From Clostridia bacterium (GTDB lineage Bacteria; Bacillota; Clostridia; TANB77; CAG-508): a DNA stretch of 33,254 nucleotides. The notes beneath the pieces were generated by a model that had not been told where the DNA came from, did no database searches, and saw only the letters and a program-made list of their open reading frames with translations. This document shows, piece by piece, positions 5,618 through 16,310 of the stretch. The translations under genes were made by a program, and so were the position numbers. The stretch is from assembly GCA_022795675.1 (NCBI GenBank), contig JAAWHY010000001.1:1-33254 (forward strand), given 5' to 3'. Position 1 is the stretch's first letter, and every line of letters starts with the position of its first letter.

Positions 5618-6136
5618 TTACTGTCCATCTACCATTACTACTCCTGAATGTTTAGATGTTATAGTATTTCCACTATTTCCTGTTATTTTATAGAAAAAAT
5701 TTTTTAAAACTTCTGCTACAGTTTGATTATTGTTTACTACTCCTGCTGAAAACATATCTCCTTGTTTCAAATATACTGTTCCATCATCAAGTTCCTCTTC
5801 AATTTGTGTAGTATAAATTGAATAATATGTATTTTCACCTATTCTTTGCTCATTGGCACTTGCTGTTTTTTTACTTGGGTTTTCATCTAAACGTCTTAAT
5901 TCTAAGTCTACTGAATATGTATTTCCTGTGGAGGTAATTGTTTGTATAAAATCATCGTAACTGTCTTGTGTTATTTTTCCTGTTTGTCTTACTCCATCTA
6001 CAAACTCTACTGTAGCTGTTTGGACTGCTATTTGTGATATATCATCTGTTCTATCTGCTAATGTTATCATTGGAAATACAAATAACAGTATTGCAGCTAA
6101 TATGATTGTTATAATAGTAATTAAAGAATCTCCCAT
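5618..6136 (-). CDS. pilus-operon protein with an N-terminal hydrophobic helix (possible minor pilin or assembly factor), unknown family
   Basis: 172-aa ORF with N-terminus MGDSLITIITIILAAILLFVFPMITLA and an AGGAGGG RBS. It is the last gene of the operon. I recognise no family motif. Confidence 0.45.
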   Translation of the reverse strand: MGDSLITIITIILAAILLFVFPMITLADRTDDISQIAVQTATVEFVDGVRQTGKITQDSYDDFIQTITSTGNTYSVDLELRRLDENPSKKTASANEQRIGENTYYSIYTTQIEEELDDGTVYLKQGDMFSAGVVNNNQTVAEVLKNFFYKITGNSGNTITSKHSGVVMVDGQ

Positions 6137-6176
6137 TTAAATTCCCTCCTTTATATAATGTTAAAACAAAAGTGCA

Positions 6177-7040
6177 TTAGTTATTTTTTATATAAATTAT
6201 TTCTCTTTTTTTAGTATAACGGATTGTTCCGAATACTAATAGACCTGTGTCTTGGTCATTTTCATCCTTGATGTATTCATTTCTGTCTAACTGTACAATA
6301 GATTCTGTAAAAGTATCATCTTTATACTTTTCTAATAATCCATTGCTATAAAATGATTTATGTTTTCCAGCTATATAGTTTAGATCAGTTTCATTAACAC
6401 CTGGGTTTTTTAAACTGAAATTTGTAATTCCTCCATACATATCACAATTTACCCTCTGTGTTACATTATTATTTTGATATGTATTTGCACTTAACCATGA
6501 TGTATATACAAGTTCCTTTTTAGGATCTGTTTCTCCTGTTGAATATATTTTTTTTACTAAAATATCTAAAGAGTTTTCATCTAAATTAGTCATAGATGTT
6601 ATATTTGGTTCTAAACTATTTACTTTTGATATTATATTATCATTTAAATATTTACATATTTCAGCTTTTATATCATTACTCTTCTTTTTTTCAATTTGTG
6701 ATGCACTATGATACCTATCATTCCAAAAACAACTAGACACTTGTGATTCAGTGTCTAAGTCAAATCTAGCTACAATTTCACCAGAATCTATTATTGTTAC
6801 TCCATATCCTTCCTGAGCATATCTGTATATTGTTGGTATCATATCTTGGAACTTTACTTTTCTATTAGCTCCATAACTTGTATCTGCATTATAATTTACA
6901 TATGTAGTTTTATCTATCGCTTCAAATATCTTATCTGTAGTATCCTTTGCAACAGAGGTCATTCGGAAAAATACACTTAAAGCTAATGAAAATACAAATA
7001 CAGCAAAAAACATTTTTAAGGCTTCAGCCGCATTCTCCAT
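6177..7040 (-). CDS. large pilin-like protein with the MENAAEAL N-terminus (candidate minor or tip pilin)
   Basis: 287-aa ORF. It starts MENAAEALKMFFAVFVFSLALSVFF, sharing the M-E-N-A-x-x-A-L start and a single hydrophobic helix with three upstream paralogues. It has a GGAGG RBS. Confidence 0.55.
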   Translation of the reverse strand: MENAAEALKMFFAVFVFSLALSVFFRMTSVAKDTTDKIFEAIDKTTYVNYNADTSYGANRKVKFQDMIPTIYRYAQEGYGVTIIDSGEIVARFDLDTESQVSSCFWNDRYHSASQIEKKKSNDIKAEICKYLNDNIISKVNSLEPNITSMTNLDENSLDILVKKIYSTGETDPKKELVYTSWLSANTYQNNNVTQRVNCDMYGGITNFSLKNPGVNETDLNYIAGKHKSFYSNGLLEKYKDDTFTESIVQLDRNEYIKDENDQDTGLLVFGTIRYTKKREIIYIKNN

Positions 7041-7060
7041 TTAATTTCCTCCTTATATAA

Positions 7061-7489
7061 TTATTTTCTTGTTATTGATATTTGTTCAATATATCCATCA
7101 GCACTCTTTTTTTCCATTACTACATCATATCTTGCTGAACTAACTATTTGTGCACCAAATTTTGTAAGTTCTGTTGAATCTGACATTTCCTTTTTCTCTA
7201 TTGATAGTTTACTATCAGTCATTATAATTGTTATTATACGTCCACTAGAGTTTGTAGCATTATTTGTAGATACAGTATTTAATAATGTTTGTACTGCAGA
7301 TCCTTTTTGAGTACCTTGATAAGTAGTAAATCTATTATTAAATGCAGTAATTTCTTGTTCTGTTGTCATGTCTTGTGCTTCGGTTACAAGTCCTTGTGAT
7401 GATTGTACTATTACCATACCTATACTAATTAAAACTATAACAATTAAAATAGCTCCTGCTATTAATAGTGCTTTTGACGCATTCTCCAT
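7061..7489 (-). CDS. pilin-like protein (candidate major subunit)
   Basis: 142-aa ORF starting MENASKALLIAGAILIVIVLISIGMVIV. The ITAFNNRFTTYQG...GSAVQTLLNTVSTNN motif is shared with paralogues. It has its own near-consensus promoter (7580..7608) and a GGAGG RBS. Confidence 0.6.
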   Translation of the reverse strand: MENASKALLIAGAILIVIVLISIGMVIVQSSQGLVTEAQDMTTEQEITAFNNRFTTYQGTQKGSAVQTLLNTVSTNNATNSSGRIITIIMTDSKLSIEKKEMSDSTELTKFGAQIVSSARYDVVMEKKSADGYIEQISITRK

Positions 7490-7579
7490 ATTTATTCCTC
7501 CTTTGATATATCATATTATTTTTATATTTAGGCTTTATTATGCATAAATCGACATTAAAACCTTTTTTCACCTATTATT

Positions 7580-14556: not shown

Positions 14557-15258
14557 TTATATCCCATTCCTTTCTAGTGCTTTTATTGTTTTCTTTGCCT
14601 CTTGTTCTTTAATTTCATTCCCAAATAACATTCCTGTTAATTGTGCTAAACTATCTTTATATAAAGAACTCATTGATTTTAGTCCAAGTCTATAAATTAA
14701 TTGATTATCCATTTCAACATATTTATCGTCTAATATTAATGGGAAAAATATTTGCTTTTCATCCCAATGCATTTTGGCTTCTGATGCTAAATAATCGATA
14801 TATTGATTATCTGCTTCACTCATTTGCCTTGAAAATATTATTTTAACTAATTCCATAGGTTGTTTAATATTACTAAATATTTCAATTCCTTTTCTAATTG
14901 AATATAAATCCATAGCTGTTACAAAACAATTAATATCATTTTCCTCAGCCCTCATGCTTTCTAAAGTGTTTGGGCTATCAATGTTCATTAATACCACATC
15001 ATATTCTTCAGTTCCCTCTGTGATTCCAATATAATCATATATCTGTTCCATTCTCCTAAATCCTACTGCTACATCTATTTCTTCCCATGTTGTTATATAT
15101 GTCATAGTCGGTTGTAATGTAGGTACTATGTATCTAAATTTTTGTTCTGCTGTTGTGTCTACTATTAATACTCTTTTATTTTTCATTGATAAAATTTTTG
15201 CAAGACACATTATTAAATTTGCTTTATCATATGCTCCTATAAATCCGACTTTTTTCAT
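14557..15258 (-). CDS. MinD/ParA-fold protein with a degenerate P-loop (TadZ/CpaE-like), copy 1
   Basis: 233-aa ORF. KKVGFIGAYDKANLIMCLAKILS replaces the Walker A. RVLIVDTT and YDVVLMNIDS fit the MinD/ParA strand pattern. Confidence 0.5.
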   Translation of the reverse strand: MKKVGFIGAYDKANLIMCLAKILSMKNKRVLIVDTTAEQKFRYIVPTLQPTMTYITTWEEIDVAVGFRRMEQIYDYIGITEGTEEYDVVLMNIDSPNTLESMRAEENDINCFVTAMDLYSIRKGIEIFSNIKQPMELVKIIFSRQMSEADNQYIDYLASEAKMHWDEKQIFFPLILDDKYVEMDNQLIYRLGLKSMSSLYKDSLAQLTGMLFGNEIKEQEAKKTIKALERNGI

Positions 15259-15276
15259 TATATTTTCTCCTTATCT

Positions 15277-16239
15277 TTATTTTGTTGTAGTTGTCATTGT
15301 TGATGATTGCTTTGTTTCTAACTCCTTCATGTAGTCAGCTCTTGATTGTTTTTGTGCTTCTATTGATGCCCCAGTTCCTGTAGATACATTTCCTTGTGCT
15401 TCTTCACCTACTGATGTTACTGCTGGATCTATGATGTCAGTTCTTCCACTTAACAATGTAGAATTGTTATATCTTTTTGCTAATTCATCTTTTGCTGTTT
15501 GTATAACATTTGGATTACTATTTATCAATTGTAATACTGATCGTGTTGGAACATATGTAACCGATGCTGCATTTTGTAGTCCTGGTTCTATATATTTTGT
15601 AGCATACAATAATGTTCCATCTATTTGGTATGCTTCAACTATTGCATTTGATAATGTCAAAATTTCATCTTCTGTAAGTCTTATCCACATAGTAATTTCA
15701 TCAGCATTTAATACCTTCTTTTTTGATACAACTATGTAATCTTGTCCACTTGGTAAACGTAATCTTATATCTATATAATCATTTTCTTGTAATTGTGTAG
15801 GTAATACTATCATATTAAATTCTTGTTCTCTTGTATCGTCTTGTGTTTTGTCTCCAGATTCTTCAATCATATCTGTTGATAATATTGTTCCTGATTTTAA
15901 ATCTATCTTAAATATTGAATTTTCCGTTATTACATTTGAATAATTAGATGCAGTAATTGCTGTTTCTGGTGCTGCTTTTCTTGTTACTTCTACAGTAGAT
16001 AATTCACTTGTTAATAATCCACCTTTTTCTGTTTTTGTTGCAACATTTGTTCCTGATTTAACATCTTTTATTAATACATAAACTGTTACTTTATCATTTT
16101 CTATTTCTTCTTTTTCTGCTTTTTGTTGATACATCATATATAAAAGGAATGCTATTACAAGTGCTGCTATTATCATTGTGATAAAGACTCCTAATAAAAA
16201 TGAATTTCTTGCTTTTCTTTGCATTGGATTTGATGCCAT
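15277..16239 (-). CDS. CpaB/RcpC-like pilus assembly protein
   Basis: 320-aa ORF with an N-terminal TM helix (FLLGVFITMIIAALVIAFLLYMM), a SAF-like segment (VTVYVLIKDVKSGTNV) and a segment like the CpaB C-terminal domain (FNMIVLPTQLQENDYIDIRLRLPSGQDYIVV). It is the first gene behind the promoter at 16282..16310. Confidence 0.55.
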   Translation of the reverse strand: MASNPMQRKARNSFLLGVFITMIIAALVIAFLLYMMYQQKAEKEEIENDKVTVYVLIKDVKSGTNVATKTEKGGLLTSELSTVEVTRKAAPETAITASNYSNVITENSIFKIDLKSGTILSTDMIEESGDKTQDDTREQEFNMIVLPTQLQENDYIDIRLRLPSGQDYIVVSKKKVLNADEITMWIRLTEDEILTLSNAIVEAYQIDGTLLYATKYIEPGLQNAASVTYVPTRSVLQLINSNPNVIQTAKDELAKRYNNSTLLSGRTDIIDPAVTSVGEEAQGNVSTGTGASIEAQKQSRADYMKELETKQSSTMTTTTK

Positions 16240-16281
16240 TTCAAATTCCTCCCTTTTTTACAAATAATCATACTAATTTAT

Positions 16282-16310
16282 ATTATACGCTAGATTTTTT
16301 CAATATTCAA
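16282..16310 (-). promoter_or_regulatory. sigma-A type promoter of the Tad-like operon
   Basis: The minus strand reads TTGAAT, a 17-nt spacer, then TATAAT. The -10 lies about 40 nt upstream of the CpaB-like ATG, and the RBS is GGGAGG. Confidence 0.6.

What the first reader, a model, noticed from the sequence alone, without database searches (positions are those of the whole stretch)
5618..16310. Divergent Tad/archaeal-type type IV filament operon in a spore-forming low-GC Firmicute
Eleven same-strand genes follow a TTGAAT-17-TATAAT promoter with mostly short gaps; the two large gaps are filled by structured repeats. In order they are:
- a CpaB/RcpC-like protein;
- two MinD/ParA-fold TadZ-like proteins;
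- a CpaF/TadA-type ATPase (GEQGCGKTT);
- a 694-aa polytopic protein with two GspF/TadB/TadC-like modules;
- six small proteins, each with a single N-terminal hydrophobic helix.
The gene order matches a Tad locus, but the subunits do not. None shows the Flp G/xxxxEY motif, the TadE/TadF motif or the bacterial G|F..E5 prepilin motif. No prepilin peptidase (TadV/CpaA/PilD) is encoded anywhere in the window. The ATPase is membrane-anchored, and the platform is a single fused gene. Taken together this looks like an undescribed lineage of type IV filament machinery rather than a textbook Tad, Com or T4aP system.
Basis: partly seen in the sequence, partly recalled or inferred. Interest (0 to 1): 0.8.

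Follow-up and report, generated by a model that had tools for sequence, protein, structure and literature searches.

The report
Published TANB77 Tad-like pilus operon
This is one copy of a pilus-building gene cluster shared by an uncultured group of gut bacteria (TANB77) and already published in 2024, but nobody has explained how its unusual pilus subunits are processed.

Summary
Eleven conserved minus-strand genes (16239 to 5618) encode a SAF/CpaB-like protein, two degenerate ParA-like proteins, a membrane-anchored CpaF-type ATPase, a 694-aa fused platform protein and six small proteins with one N-terminal helix.

The "undescribed lineage" claim does not hold. Kim et al. 2024 (Nat Commun, PMC11680825) described this cluster as a Tad-like pilus locus present in 122 of 129 TANB77 species, with the same component assignments. 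The window is an orthologue that lacks their "pilin 938".

What I add:
- Four subunit paralogues start exactly at M-E-N-A-S/T-K-A-L. A Shine-Dalgarno site and an upstream stop codon fix each start.
- No canonical Flp, TadE or G|F..E5 motif exists in any ORF of the window.
- I found no A24 peptidase in the window and no A24-type active-site motif within 10 kb of 80 related loci.
- An AlphaFold model of one subunit (pLDDT 89) has a pilin-like lollipop shape.
- Homologous clusters sit on megaplasmids of cultured Bacillota, so the system is not exclusive to TANB77.

Open question: is MENASKA|L a 7-residue leader cut by a peptidase encoded elsewhere, or are the subunits unprocessed?

The parts
16282..16310 (-). 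Sigma-70-like promoter match TTGAAT-17-TATAAT upstream of the first gene.
   Evidence: Such matches are not above chance density in this AT-rich DNA (83 found, 82.9 expected).
15277..16239 (-). g01, 320 aa. N-terminal TM helix followed by a SAF-type domain; CpaB/RcpC-like. Corresponds to Kim et al. protein 927.
   Evidence: It is 35% identical (E 9e-43) to a Cohnella plasmid protein. That protein hits Pfam SAF at 40 bits and ChapFlgA at 28.7 bits. A profile search of the PDB gives FlgA as best hit, but only at E 0.19. hhalign against the SAF protein of a Streptomyces Tad locus gives E 0.0015, colinear. No direct Pfam hit.
14557..15258 (-). g02, 233 aa. Degenerate ParA/MinD-fold protein, TadZ-like. 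P-loop reduced to G-x-x-D-K-T. Corresponds to Kim et al. protein 928.
   Evidence: All sequence signals are weak: CbiA E 0.023, MinD structure 4v02 E 0.31, hhalign against a plasmid ParA E 0.01, colinear. Invariant residues G8 and K12.
13714..14556 (-). g03, 280 aa. Second ParA/MinD-fold protein, CpaE/TadZ-like. The P-loop lysine is replaced (consensus T-G-Q-T). Corresponds to Kim et al. protein 929.
   Evidence: MinD TIGR01968 E 2e-4. ParA-family structure 3ea0 E 7e-4. hhalign against ParA E 0.004 over 164 columns. Consensus.
13528..13713 (-). Inserted copy of a dispersed two-hairpin intergenic repeat. It is not part of the machine. The 62-aa ORF 13524-13712 lies inside it.
   Evidence: Absent from L001-L004. 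Other copies at 26788-26899 and 19546-19637. 31 predicted pairs, 9 with compensatory changes.
11620..13527 (-). g05, 635 aa. CpaF/TadA-type secretion ATPase with an N-terminal membrane anchor, a roughly 240-aa N-domain and a roughly 90-aa C-terminal extension. Walker A is GEQGCGKTT. Corresponds to Kim et al. protein 930.
   Evidence: Pfam T2SSE 28.7 bits against a cutoff of 24.9. Best NCBIfam family is TadA. In the PDB, CpaF scores 46 bits (E 2e-11), against VirB11 21, DotB 17, GspE 15, FlaI 15 and PilT 13. Median identity across 80 loci is 78%.
9506..11590 (-). g06, 694 aa. Polytopic platform protein with about 7-8 TM helices and two large, highly conserved cytoplasmic helical domains (about 141-264 and 530-662). 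Corresponds to Kim et al. protein 931.
   Evidence: No Pfam, NCBIfam or PDB sequence hit. AlphaFold model is all-helical, pLDDT 66. Foldseek: the EpsF cytoplasmic domain 2vma aligns with probability 0.85, TM-score 0.62 on the target, rmsd 3.8 A; its E-value is 3.4 and no match to the model reaches E 0.001. hhalign of the N-half against a TadB+TadC profile gives 75% probability, E 2.6e-5, over 233 colinear columns. The C-half is not significant.
9357..9505 (-). Lineage-specific 149-nt spacer that forms a hairpin.
   Evidence: MFE -36.8 kcal/mol, z = -2.27. Most relatives have a gap of about 18 nt here.
8673..9356 (-). g07, 227 aa. MENA-type pilin-like paralogue. The true start is probably the ATG at 9350, giving MDNAAKGLLMAGG.
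   Evidence: N-terminal motif. hhalign against g08 E 8e-42 and against g10 E 1e-26.
8169..8666 (-). g08, 165 aa. MENA-type pilin-like paralogue (MENASKALLIAAEVLIG).
7624..8067 (-). g09, 147 aa. It shares the globular head of g07, g08 and g10, but its N-terminus is MKK plus a hydrophobic helix.
   Evidence: hhalign against g07 gives 99.5% probability (E 3e-22) and against g08 99.0%. Conserved in 77 of 80 loci.
7061..7489 (-). g10, 142 aa. Candidate major subunit. Its first 25 residues are almost invariant, it is the shortest paralogue, and three promoter-like matches lie in the 134-nt gap upstream.
   Evidence: AlphaFold pLDDT 89.4: helix 2-55 followed by an alpha/beta head. Alignment of 71 homologues. 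Promoter-like sites at 7620-7574. Foldseek finds no significant PDB match.
6177..7040 (-). g11, 287 aa. MENA-type paralogue with a large variable head (MENAAEALKMFFAV).
   Evidence: Homology to g07, g08 and g10 is confined to the N-terminal 36-49 residues.
5618..6136 (-). g12, 172 aa. Separate conserved family (MGDSLITI...FVFP) with one N-terminal helix ending in a conserved Pro. Corresponds to Kim et al. protein 937.
   Evidence: Median identity 52% in 74 loci. P22 is conserved in 97%. Homologues occur in the plasmid clusters, E 6e-15 to 2.5e-19. No significant match to Flp or TadE.
5581..5601 (-). Terminator-like hairpin ending the operon.

Best explanation
The region is the chromosomal Tad-derived type IV filament (pilus) operon that characterises the uncultured gut order TANB77. 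It is an orthologue of genes 927-937 of Kim et al. 2024.

Proposed mechanism (inferred, not shown):
1. A membrane-anchored hexameric CpaF-type ATPase (g05) turns a single fused two-module platform protein (g06).
2. The platform lifts bitopic, N-in/C-out pilin-like subunits out of the membrane and stacks them by their long N-terminal helices into a fibre that crosses the Gram-positive wall.
3. g10 is probably the major subunit. g07, g08, g09 and g11 are paralogous minor subunits. g12 is an accessory TM protein.
4. A CpaB-like TM+SAF protein (g01) and two catalytically degenerate ParA-fold proteins (g02, g03; TadZ/CpaE-like) scaffold or position the machine.
5. The likely role is adhesion, aggregation or host contact in the gut.

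Subunit processing. The subunits carry no canonical class III signal peptide. I think the invariant M-E-N-A-S-K-A|L-L-I-A-G is most likely a minimal 7-residue leader, with Lys at -2 and Ala or Gly at -1, cut by an A24 peptidase encoded elsewhere in the genome. Unprocessed assembly is the main alternative.

Shown here: gene content, conservation, ATPase affinity, fixed N-termini and the predicted pilin-like architecture. Inferred: filament formation, subunit roles, processing and function.
For: Gene order and protein sizes match Table 1 of PMC11680825. Relatives include Ca. Scatovivens, which belongs to family CAG-508 of TANB77.

The order is conserved in 80 species-level loci. The ATPase is 75-97% identical, and the platform has a median identity of 57%.

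Component evidence:
- ATPase closest to CpaF.
- SAF domain in g01, by transitive homology.
- ParA-fold signals in g02 and g03.
- Platform N-half against TadB/TadC, E 2.6e-5.
- EpsF cytoplasmic domain as a domain-level Foldseek match, probability 0.85.
- g10 model at pLDDT 89 with a 54-residue N-terminal helix and an alpha/beta head.
- g07, g08, g09, g10 and g11 are paralogues.

Starts are fixed by a Shine-Dalgarno site 6-9 nt upstream and an in-frame stop 3-27 nt upstream of each gene. Positions 1-8 are 95-100% conserved in three of the four paralogue families; g11 is more variable at positions 4-6 and 8.

In eight pilin-like proteins from seven divergent plasmid-borne homologous clusters, the residue just before the hydrophobic helix is A, G or S in 7 of 8. 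It is usually preceded by K. That is the pattern expected of a peptidase site.

The operon has a sigma-70-like promoter match and a terminator.
Against: No filament has ever been seen; TANB77 is uncultured.

Sequence support is thin in several places:
- The platform has no sequence-level match to T2SSF in Pfam, NCBIfam or the PDB. Its C-half is not significant by hhalign.
- The platform model is only of moderate confidence, pLDDT 66.
- The g10 head has no significant Foldseek match to any solved pilin.
- There is no sequence similarity to Flp or TadE.

No A24 peptidase was found in the window, and no A24-type active-site motif (a crude pattern search) within 10 kb of 80 loci. The annotated stretches of the seven plasmid clusters list no prepilin peptidase.

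The near-invariance of M-E-N-A, at -7 to -4 of the proposed cleavage site, is stronger than expected for a disposable leader. The g11 family has D or E at -2, and one plasmid system has K at -1.
Confidence: 0.8

Rival explanations
1. Peptidase-independent filament. The subunits are made in their mature form. Met1-Glu2-Asn3 is kept, and the conserved Glu2/Lys6 pair stands in for the N-terminal amine/Glu5 salt bridge of classical pilins. The machine therefore needs no prepilin peptidase.
For: The starts leave no room for a longer leader. M-E-N-A is 95-100% invariant across three of the four paralogue families and nearly so in g11, although those families share under 30% identity elsewhere. No A24 gene was found in the window, and no A24-type motif near 80 loci; none is annotated near seven plasmid clusters. 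Glu at position 2 blocks removal of Met1 by methionine aminopeptidase (established enzyme specificity). A literature search found no precedent and no counter-example.
Against: A peptidase is reported in every type IV filament system studied (Pelicic 2023), and it is often encoded away from the locus. The junction residue is A, G or S after K in 7 of 8 divergent homologues, which looks like a cleavage site. The rest of the genome could not be searched.
Confidence: 0.3
2. Same machinery, but it builds a short pseudopilus that works as a wall-spanning piston for protein secretion or DNA uptake (like T2SS or Com), not an adhesive fibre.
For: The composition of one short subunit plus four or five paralogous minor subunits and a fused two-module platform resembles Com/T2SS (Table 1 of Pelicic 2023). 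Genomes of this clade are reduced.
Against: The ATPase is CpaF-like, not ComGA- or GspE-like. CpaB-like and TadZ-like partners are Tad features. No ComEA/ComEC gene and no obvious secreted substrate lies in the window or the flanks. Most relatives add a large pilin-anchored protein, '938', one copy of which has cell-surface repeats typical of a tip adhesin.
Confidence: 0.12
3. A conjugation-associated mating pilus, or a domesticated relic of one. The family may have originated on conjugative megaplasmids.
For: Homologous clusters sit on large plasmids of Cohnella, Alkalihalophilus, Paenibacillus, Lysinibacillus and Clostridium. In P. urinalis the cluster lies next to a T4SS coupling protein and a replication-relaxation protein. 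Two Clostridium clusters contain a cell-wall hydrolase. pBsph-like plasmids are reported to be conjugative (PMC13239906).
Against: The window copy is chromosomal, among housekeeping genes (nusA-infB-rbfA-truB, ruvX, purM), with no relaxase, coupling protein or VirB4. It is inherited vertically and syntenically across TANB77. VirB11 is a poor match to the ATPase.
Confidence: 0.06
4. A sporulation-linked envelope or spore-appendage machine, suggested by its conserved neighbours.
For: An alpha/beta-type SASP gene lies divergently upstream in 50 of 80 loci. A gene I read as SpoIVB-like, from its N-terminus only, follows the cluster in many relatives.
Against: The promoter match is sigma-A-like. 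The neighbourhood also holds unrelated housekeeping genes. The plasmid homologues lack these neighbours. No sporulation-specific signal was found.
Confidence: 0.03

Closest known systems
TANB77 conserved pilus gene cluster (genes 927-938 of HRGM_Genome_2725; Kim et al., Nat Commun 2024, PMC11680825)
   Same: Same taxon. Same gene order and near-identical protein sizes:
- 927: 358 aa there, 320 aa here.
- 928: 231 aa there, 233 aa here.
- 929: 280 aa in both.
- 930: 640 aa with one TM helix there, 635 aa here.
- 931: 693 aa with 8 TM helices there, 694 aa here.
Six small single-TM proteins follow in both.
   Different: The window and its closest relatives (L001-L004) lack the 938 gene, the large pilin-like protein that the paper tested as a TLR4 agonist. 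A cohesin/LPXTG protein and a sortase follow instead. The window also carries two lineage-specific intergenic insertions.
Tad / Flp pilus (T4cP) of Aggregatibacter and Caulobacter, and monoderm Tad loci such as the Streptomyces plasmid locus L085
   Same: CpaF/TadA-type ATPase, a CpaB-like TM+SAF protein, ParA-fold TadZ/CpaE-like proteins, a platform with TadB/TadC-like modules, and a run of small subunit genes after the platform.
   Different: - The platform is one fused gene, not separate tadB and tadC.
- The ATPase has a membrane anchor and extra N- and C-terminal domains.
- There are two short ParA-like proteins without a receiver-like N-domain.
- There is no Flp (G|xxxxEY) and no TadE/TadF motif.
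- The subunits are 142-287 aa with globular heads, not 50-80-aa Flp.
- No TadV lies in the locus.
Plasmid-borne homologous clusters in cultured Bacillota (Cohnella herbarum NZ_CP051681, A. pseudofirmus OF4 pBpOF4-01, L. sphaericus pBsph, C. argentinense pRSJ17_1, Paenibacillus, C. botulinum, C. beijerinckii)
   Same: Same architecture: SAF protein, ParA-like protein(s), a long ATPase (about 50% identical; TM-anchored in Cohnella), a fused platform (33% identical), a subunit with a short polar N-terminus (MSNAQKAL, MDSVTKAI, MGENARKAL), a g12 homologue and a 938-like protein.
   Different: These are on plasmids. They have fewer subunit paralogues (1-2). Several add a longer CpaE-like protein upstream, a giant DUF5704, SLH or cell-wall-binding protein downstream, and a GGDEF gene. 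All are annotated as hypothetical proteins, and I found no paper that mentions these clusters.
Com pilus (T4dP) of Firmicutes
   Same: A monoderm system with a fused two-module platform and one major plus about four minor subunits.
   Different: ComGA scores lower than TadA/CpaF (21.6 against 33.1 bits). Com has no CpaB or TadZ partners. Com subunits have canonical G|F..E5 leaders, which are absent here.

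Membership tests
Type IV filament superfamily (core set of Pelicic 2023 / Denise 2019) | Extension ATPase of the T2SSE/PilB/CpaF family | tested here: met
   Pfam T2SSE 28.7 bits against a cutoff of 24.9. 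CpaF structures E 2e-11 over residues 273-545.
Type IV filament superfamily (core set of Pelicic 2023 / Denise 2019) | Polytopic platform protein with GspF/T2SSF module(s) | tested here: inconclusive
   No Pfam, NCBIfam or PDB sequence hit, even for divergent homologues. N-half against TadB+TadC by hhalign: 75% probability, E 2.6e-5. Foldseek match to the EpsF domain: probability 0.85, TM-score 0.62, E 3.4. Kim et al. report structural matches to TadC and TadB for the two halves.
Type IV filament superfamily (core set of Pelicic 2023 / Denise 2019) | Subunits with a class III signal peptide (Gly at -1, hydrophobic helix, usually Glu5) | tested here: not met
   No canonical motif in any of 254 ORFs. 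N-termini are fixed at MENASKAL. A non-canonical K-A|L site is possible.
Type IV filament superfamily (core set of Pelicic 2023 / Denise 2019) | Pilin architecture: long N-terminal helix plus a globular alpha/beta head | tested here: met
   g10 AlphaFold model at pLDDT 89.4: helix 2-55, then strands and helices. This is architecture only; no solved pilin is a significant Foldseek match.
Type IV filament superfamily (core set of Pelicic 2023 / Denise 2019) | Prepilin peptidase (A24) in the genome | not testable with these tools
   None found in the window. A crude active-site pattern found none within 10 kb of 80 loci. The rest of the genome is not available.
Tad / Flp pilus (T4cP) | ATPase of the CpaF/TadA clade rather than PilB, GspE, FlaI or VirB11 | tested here: met
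   Score ranking only, no tree: CpaF 46 bits, VirB11 21, DotB 17, GspE 15, FlaI 15, PilT 13. The best NCBIfam family is TadA, but far below its cutoff.
Tad / Flp pilus (T4cP) | Two separate single-module platform genes, tadB and tadC | tested here: not met
   One 694-aa gene in the window and in most of the 80 loci. 121 of the best 150 cluster representatives are 620-720 aa long.
Tad / Flp pilus (T4cP) | Flp major pilin (G|xxxxEY) and TadE/TadF pseudopilins | tested here: not met
   Motif scan negative. hhalign of each subunit family against Flp and TadE from two Tad loci is not significant.
Tad / Flp pilus (T4cP) | CpaB/RcpC-type protein (TM helix plus SAF domain) | tested here: met
   Met by transitive homology. 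g01 is 35% identical (E 9e-43) to a Cohnella protein that carries a Pfam SAF domain at 40 bits. Direct searches are weak.
Tad / Flp pilus (T4cP) | TadZ/CpaE ParA-family protein with an atypical Walker A | tested here: inconclusive
   Only ParA/MinD-level signals: E 2e-4 to 0.02. P-loops are degenerate. A specific TadZ relationship rests on Kim et al.'s structure matches.
TANB77 pilus gene cluster (Kim et al. 2024) | Gene order 927-937 with matching sizes and TM pattern, in a TANB77 genome | tested here: met
   against Table 1. Relatives include Ca. Scatovivens (L048), a member of family CAG-508 of TANB77.
TANB77 pilus gene cluster (Kim et al. 2024) | Terminal large pilin-like gene 938 | tested here: not met
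   No tblastn hit anywhere in the window. It is present after g12 in at least 54 of the 72 loci that include g12, and absent after g12 in L001, L003 and L004; L002 ends 97 bp past g12.
Conjugative T4SS (VirB11-type) | VirB11-clade ATPase together with VirB4, a coupling protein and a relaxase | tested here: not met
   VirB11 matches only the P-loop region, 21 bits. No such genes are in the window.

The most novel reading that the evidence does not exclude
This may be a separate branch of the type IV filament superfamily. Its features are a membrane-anchored CpaF-like ATPase, an unsplit two-module platform and two degenerate ParA-like proteins. Its subunits carry an invariant M-E-N-A-S-K-A-L N-terminus and would be assembled without any prepilin peptidase. 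That would be the first type IV filament lacking one of the four 'universal' core proteins. The branch is widespread in Bacillota: in about 95% of TANB77 species (Kim et al. 2024) and on megaplasmids of cultured Bacilli and Clostridia. The cultured carriers would make it testable by genetics.
Probability: 0.3. Interest if true: 0.8.

Novelty: already known. Interest (0 to 1): 0.42.

Why it matters
TANB77 is an abundant, uncultured gut order. Kim et al. 2024 linked its abundance, and that of these pilin-like genes, to response to cancer immunotherapy, so how this machine works has practical interest.

For pilus biology there are three open points:
- How are the subunits processed, or are they unprocessed?
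- Is the fused platform an ancestral unsplit state or a re-fusion of TadB and TadC?
- What does membrane anchoring do for the ATPase?

Two results here go beyond the published account. First, homologous clusters exist on plasmids of cultured, genetically tractable Bacillota, so the system is not exclusive to TANB77 and can be studied experimentally. Second, some TANB77 lineages, including this one, lack the 938 protein that was proposed as the immune-active component.

Tried and rejected
Searches that found nothing useful:
- Pfam and NCBIfam on all 11 proteins recognised only the ATPase.
- Profile searches of PDB sequences for g01, g02, g03 and the platform gave only marginal or no hits.
- Pfam on ten divergent platform homologues, drawn from a search of 1.84 billion representatives, gave no T2SSF hit.
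- hhalign of the platform's N-half against its C-half showed no significant internal duplication (E 0.14 and 0.0035).
- hhalign of the C-half against TadB/TadC was not significant.
- Foldseek of the g10 model against the PDB found no pilin match.
- hhalign of the subunit families against Flp, TadE and TadG was not significant.
- hhalign of g02 and g03 against canonical CpaE/TadZ sequences was not significant; ParA was the best match.
- Rfam found no match anywhere in the window.
- The supplement of Kim et al. is not held, so I could not align against their sequences.
- A literature search for peptidase-independent or leaderless pilins found nothing relevant.

Ideas rejected:
- The 62-aa ORF 13524-13712 as a gene: it is not conserved and lies in an inserted repeat.
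- A hidden small Flp gene in the intergenic gaps: none exists.
- The two large gaps being copies of one repeat: they are unrelated to each other.

Not done: a formal ATPase phylogeny. Reference sets for the Com, MSH, T2SS and archaeal clades were not available.

Full report
WHAT IS THERE

The operon is on the minus strand, from 16239 down to 5618. Eleven genes are conserved in the same order in 80 related loci taken from species-representative genomes of uncultured gut Clostridia. At least 558 stretches in those genomes encode a relative of the ATPase.

Median identity to the window proteins is 78% for the ATPase, 57% for the platform and 27-52% for the others. A twelfth ORF (13524-13712, 62 aa) is not conserved.

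Every gene has a GGAGG-type Shine-Dalgarno site 6-9 nt upstream and an in-frame stop codon 3-27 nt upstream of its ATG. The N-termini are therefore fixed. The one exception is g07, whose real start is probably the second ATG, at 9350.

A sigma-70-like match (TTGAAT-17-TATAAT, 16310-16282) precedes the first gene, and a terminator-like hairpin (5601-5581) follows the last. Promoter-like matches are no more frequent than chance in this 25-33% GC DNA.

The flanks are ordinary chromosome:
- On one side: nusA-infB-rbfA-truB, ruvX, a MiaB-like enzyme, purM and a divergent alpha/beta-type SASP gene.
- On the other side: a cohesin/LPXTG protein, a sortase, and dockerin/Big_2 and cadherin-like surface proteins.

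THE COMPONENTS

ATPase (g05). It passes Pfam T2SSE (28.7 bits, cutoff 24.9). Among solved structures it matches only CpaF convincingly. With a family profile, CpaF scores 46 bits (E 2e-11, residues 273-545). VirB11 scores 21 bits on the P-loop alone, DotB 17, GspE 15, FlaI 15 and PilT 13. This is a score ranking, not a phylogeny. The N-terminal hydrophobic anchor is conserved in the TANB77 loci and in Cohnella.

CpaB-like protein (g01). It has no direct Pfam hit. It is 35% identical (E 9e-43) to a Cohnella plasmid protein that carries a SAF domain (40 bits) and ChapFlgA. That gives the TM+SAF layout of CpaB.

ParA-like proteins (g02, g03). They give only ParA/MinD-level signals. Their P-loops are degenerate. 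This fits, but does not prove, a TadZ/CpaE-like scaffolding role. TadZ itself has an atypical Walker A (Denise et al. 2019).

Platform (g06). It has no hit in Pfam, NCBIfam or PDB sequences, even for divergent homologues.
- It has about seven hydrophobic segments and two very conserved cytoplasmic helical regions.
- Its AlphaFold model is all-helical at pLDDT 66.
- In Foldseek no match reaches E 0.001. The only compact domain-level match is the cytoplasmic domain of EpsF, a GspF protein: probability 0.85, TM-score 0.62 on the target, rmsd 3.8 A, E 3.4.
- Its N-half aligns colinearly with a small TadB+TadC profile over 233 columns (75% probability, E 2.6e-5). Its C-half does not.

THE SUBUNITS

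Four paralogue families (g07, g08, g10, g11) begin at residue 1 of the longest possible ORF with M-E-N-A-[S/T/A]-K-A-L. Each of the eight positions is 95-100% conserved in three of the families; g11 differs at positions 5, 6 and 9.

g09 shares their globular head (hhalign 99-99.5% probability against g07 and g08) but has an MKK-plus-hydrophobic N-terminus. g12 is a separate conserved family with a Pro-terminated N-terminal helix.

The g10 model is confident (pLDDT 89.4). It has a 54-residue N-terminal helix and a small alpha/beta head, the generic type IV pilin shape. Foldseek finds no solved pilin as a significant match, and there is no sequence similarity to Flp or TadE.

No G-xxxx-E-Y/F or G-F-T-L-I-E type motif occurs in any of the 254 ORFs of at least 25 aa, and there is no hidden small Flp gene in the gaps. 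No A24 peptidase was found in the window. A crude search for the A24 active-site motif found none within 10 kb of the 80 related loci.

IT IS ALREADY PUBLISHED

A literature search found Kim et al., Nat Commun 2024 (PMC11680825). They describe a cluster of 10-14 genes present in 122 of 129 species of the uncultured order TANB77, and number the genes 927-938. Using AlphaFold and Foldseek they annotate:
- 927 as CpaB (358 aa).
- 928 as TadZ (231 aa).
- 929 as CpaE (280 aa).
- 930 as TadA/CpaF (640 aa, one TM helix).
- 931 as TadC-like in its first half and TadB-like in its second (693 aa, 8 TM helices).
- 932-937 as pilin-like single-TM proteins with no detectable homology.
- 938 as a 621-aa protein with a partial TadE/PilV-like N-terminus, which they show activates dendritic cells through TLR4.

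Sizes, order and TM pattern match the window. The window's relatives include Ca. Scatovivens (L048), which belongs to family CAG-508 of TANB77. So the window is an orthologue of that cluster.

The paper never mentions a prepilin peptidase or the N-terminal motif.

WHAT IS NEW HERE

(a) The window and its nearest relatives lack 938. At least 54 of the 72 loci that include g12 have it directly after g12. L001, L003 and L004 do not, and L002 ends 97 bp past g12. No trace of it is found in the window.

(b) The system is not exclusive to TANB77.
- tblastn finds the same architecture on megaplasmids of Cohnella herbarum, Alkalihalophilus pseudofirmus OF4, Paenibacillus, Lysinibacillus sphaericus, Clostridium argentinense, C. 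botulinum and C. beijerinckii.
- Whole-protein identity to the window, measured in Cohnella and OF4, is about 50% for the ATPase and 33% for the platform. The ATPase core is 37-66% identical across the seven plasmids.
- The platform family has 1235 clusters at 50% identity with E up to 0.001.

(c) In those divergent systems the first subunit also has a 6-8-residue polar N-terminus: MSNAQKA|L, MDSVTKA|I, MESPVVKA|I, MGENARKA|L, MGENGRKG|L, MEESTNTG|L. The residue before the hydrophobic helix is A, G or S in 7 of 8 cases.

HOW IT MOST LIKELY WORKS

The membrane-anchored CpaF-like hexamer drives the fused platform. The platform extracts N-in/C-out subunits from the membrane and polymerises them through their N-terminal helices.

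g10 is the best candidate for the major subunit. It is the shortest, its helix is the most conserved, and three promoter-like matches lie in the gap upstream. g07, g08, g09 and g11 would be minor subunits. g01, g02 and g03 would scaffold the machine. All of this is inference from homology and architecture. No filament has been observed.

For processing there are two readings.
- Minimal leader. The K-[A/G/S] junction looks like a minimal class III site, comparable in length to the 6-residue leader of type IVa pilins (my own knowledge). Peptidases are often encoded away from the locus. I give this about 0.55.
- No processing. The near-invariance of M-E-N-A, far from the putative cut, and the failure to find any linked peptidase among 80 chromosomal and seven plasmid loci fit unprocessed subunits, with Glu2 and Lys6 supplying the charge pair. 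I give this about 0.3. It would break the rule that all type IV filament systems have a peptidase (Pelicic 2023).

OTHER RIVALS

- A Com- or T2SS-like pseudopilus is possible. The CpaF, CpaB and TadZ partners argue against it.
- A conjugative role is suggested by the plasmid contexts: a coupling protein and a replication-relaxation gene next to the P. urinalis cluster, cell-wall hydrolases in two Clostridium clusters, and reported conjugative pBsph-like plasmids. The window copy, however, is chromosomal, syntenic and without transfer genes.
- A sporulation role is suggested only by the SASP and SpoIVB-like neighbours.

VERDICT

Interest is moderate. The cluster is published. The non-canonical subunit N-terminus, the unresolved peptidase question, the fused platform and the existence of cultured plasmid-borne homologues are real open leads that can be tested.

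Noticed in passing
window 13528-13713, 19546-19637 and 26788-26899 (minus strand); L001:14085-14180: A dispersed intergenic repeat of about 100-120 nt with two hairpins: 31 predicted pairs, 9 with compensatory changes. One copy is inserted between g03 and the ATPase gene and is absent from the closest relatives. There is no Rfam match. It may be a REP/MITE-like element or a small-RNA family.
   Followed up: partly
window 5327-5617 and downstream genes 4262-5326, 3557-4192, 1346-2305, 89-1171: The '938' gene that follows g12 in most TANB77 loci is missing here. Instead the operon is followed by a cohesin-domain LPXTG protein, a sortase, a Big_2+dockerin protein and a cadherin-like protein. Together these look like a cohesin-dockerin surface display module.
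   Followed up: partly
L081, L082, L087-L091 (plasmids of Cohnella, A. pseudofirmus OF4, C. argentinense, L. sphaericus, C. botulinum, C. beijerinckii, P. urinalis): Homologous clusters on megaplasmids of cultured Bacillota, annotated almost entirely as hypothetical proteins. This contradicts the published statement that the cluster is exclusive to TANB77. Those clusters are followed by giant DUF5704, SLH or cell-wall-binding proteins.
   Followed up: partly
window 20684-21805; L082:22216-23220; L087:21435-22508; 3' ends of L089 and L090: A GGDEF (diguanylate cyclase) gene lies just downstream of four plasmid clusters, and a GGDEF protein lies 4.4 kb upstream of the window operon. This may point to c-di-GMP control of the machine.
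   Followed up: no
window 16711-16920 (+): An alpha/beta-type SASP gene lies divergently upstream of the operon, and a SASP homologue is present in 50 of the 80 related loci. Relatives also keep a Cof-type HAD hydrolase before the cluster and a probable SpoIVB-like gene after it (both judged from N-termini only). This is probably just conserved synteny.
   Followed up: partly
window 8068-8168 (minus strand): A GC-rich 8-bp hairpin (GGGGCGGGG...CCUCCGCCC) without a U-tract lies between g08 and g09, in otherwise 27% GC DNA. It could be an RNA stabiliser or a processing site.
   Followed up: no
window 21813-24380 and 24326-24736 (minus strand): An 855-aa ORF and an overlapping 136-aa ORF have no Pfam match. 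They sit between the GGDEF gene and a HAD hydrolase.
   Followed up: no
L019:12115-14197 and L076:11864-13940: In two relatives the platform is split into ORFs of about 435 and 255 aa, near the junction of the two modules. This is either an assembly frameshift or a natural split reminiscent of TadB/TadC.
   Followed up: no
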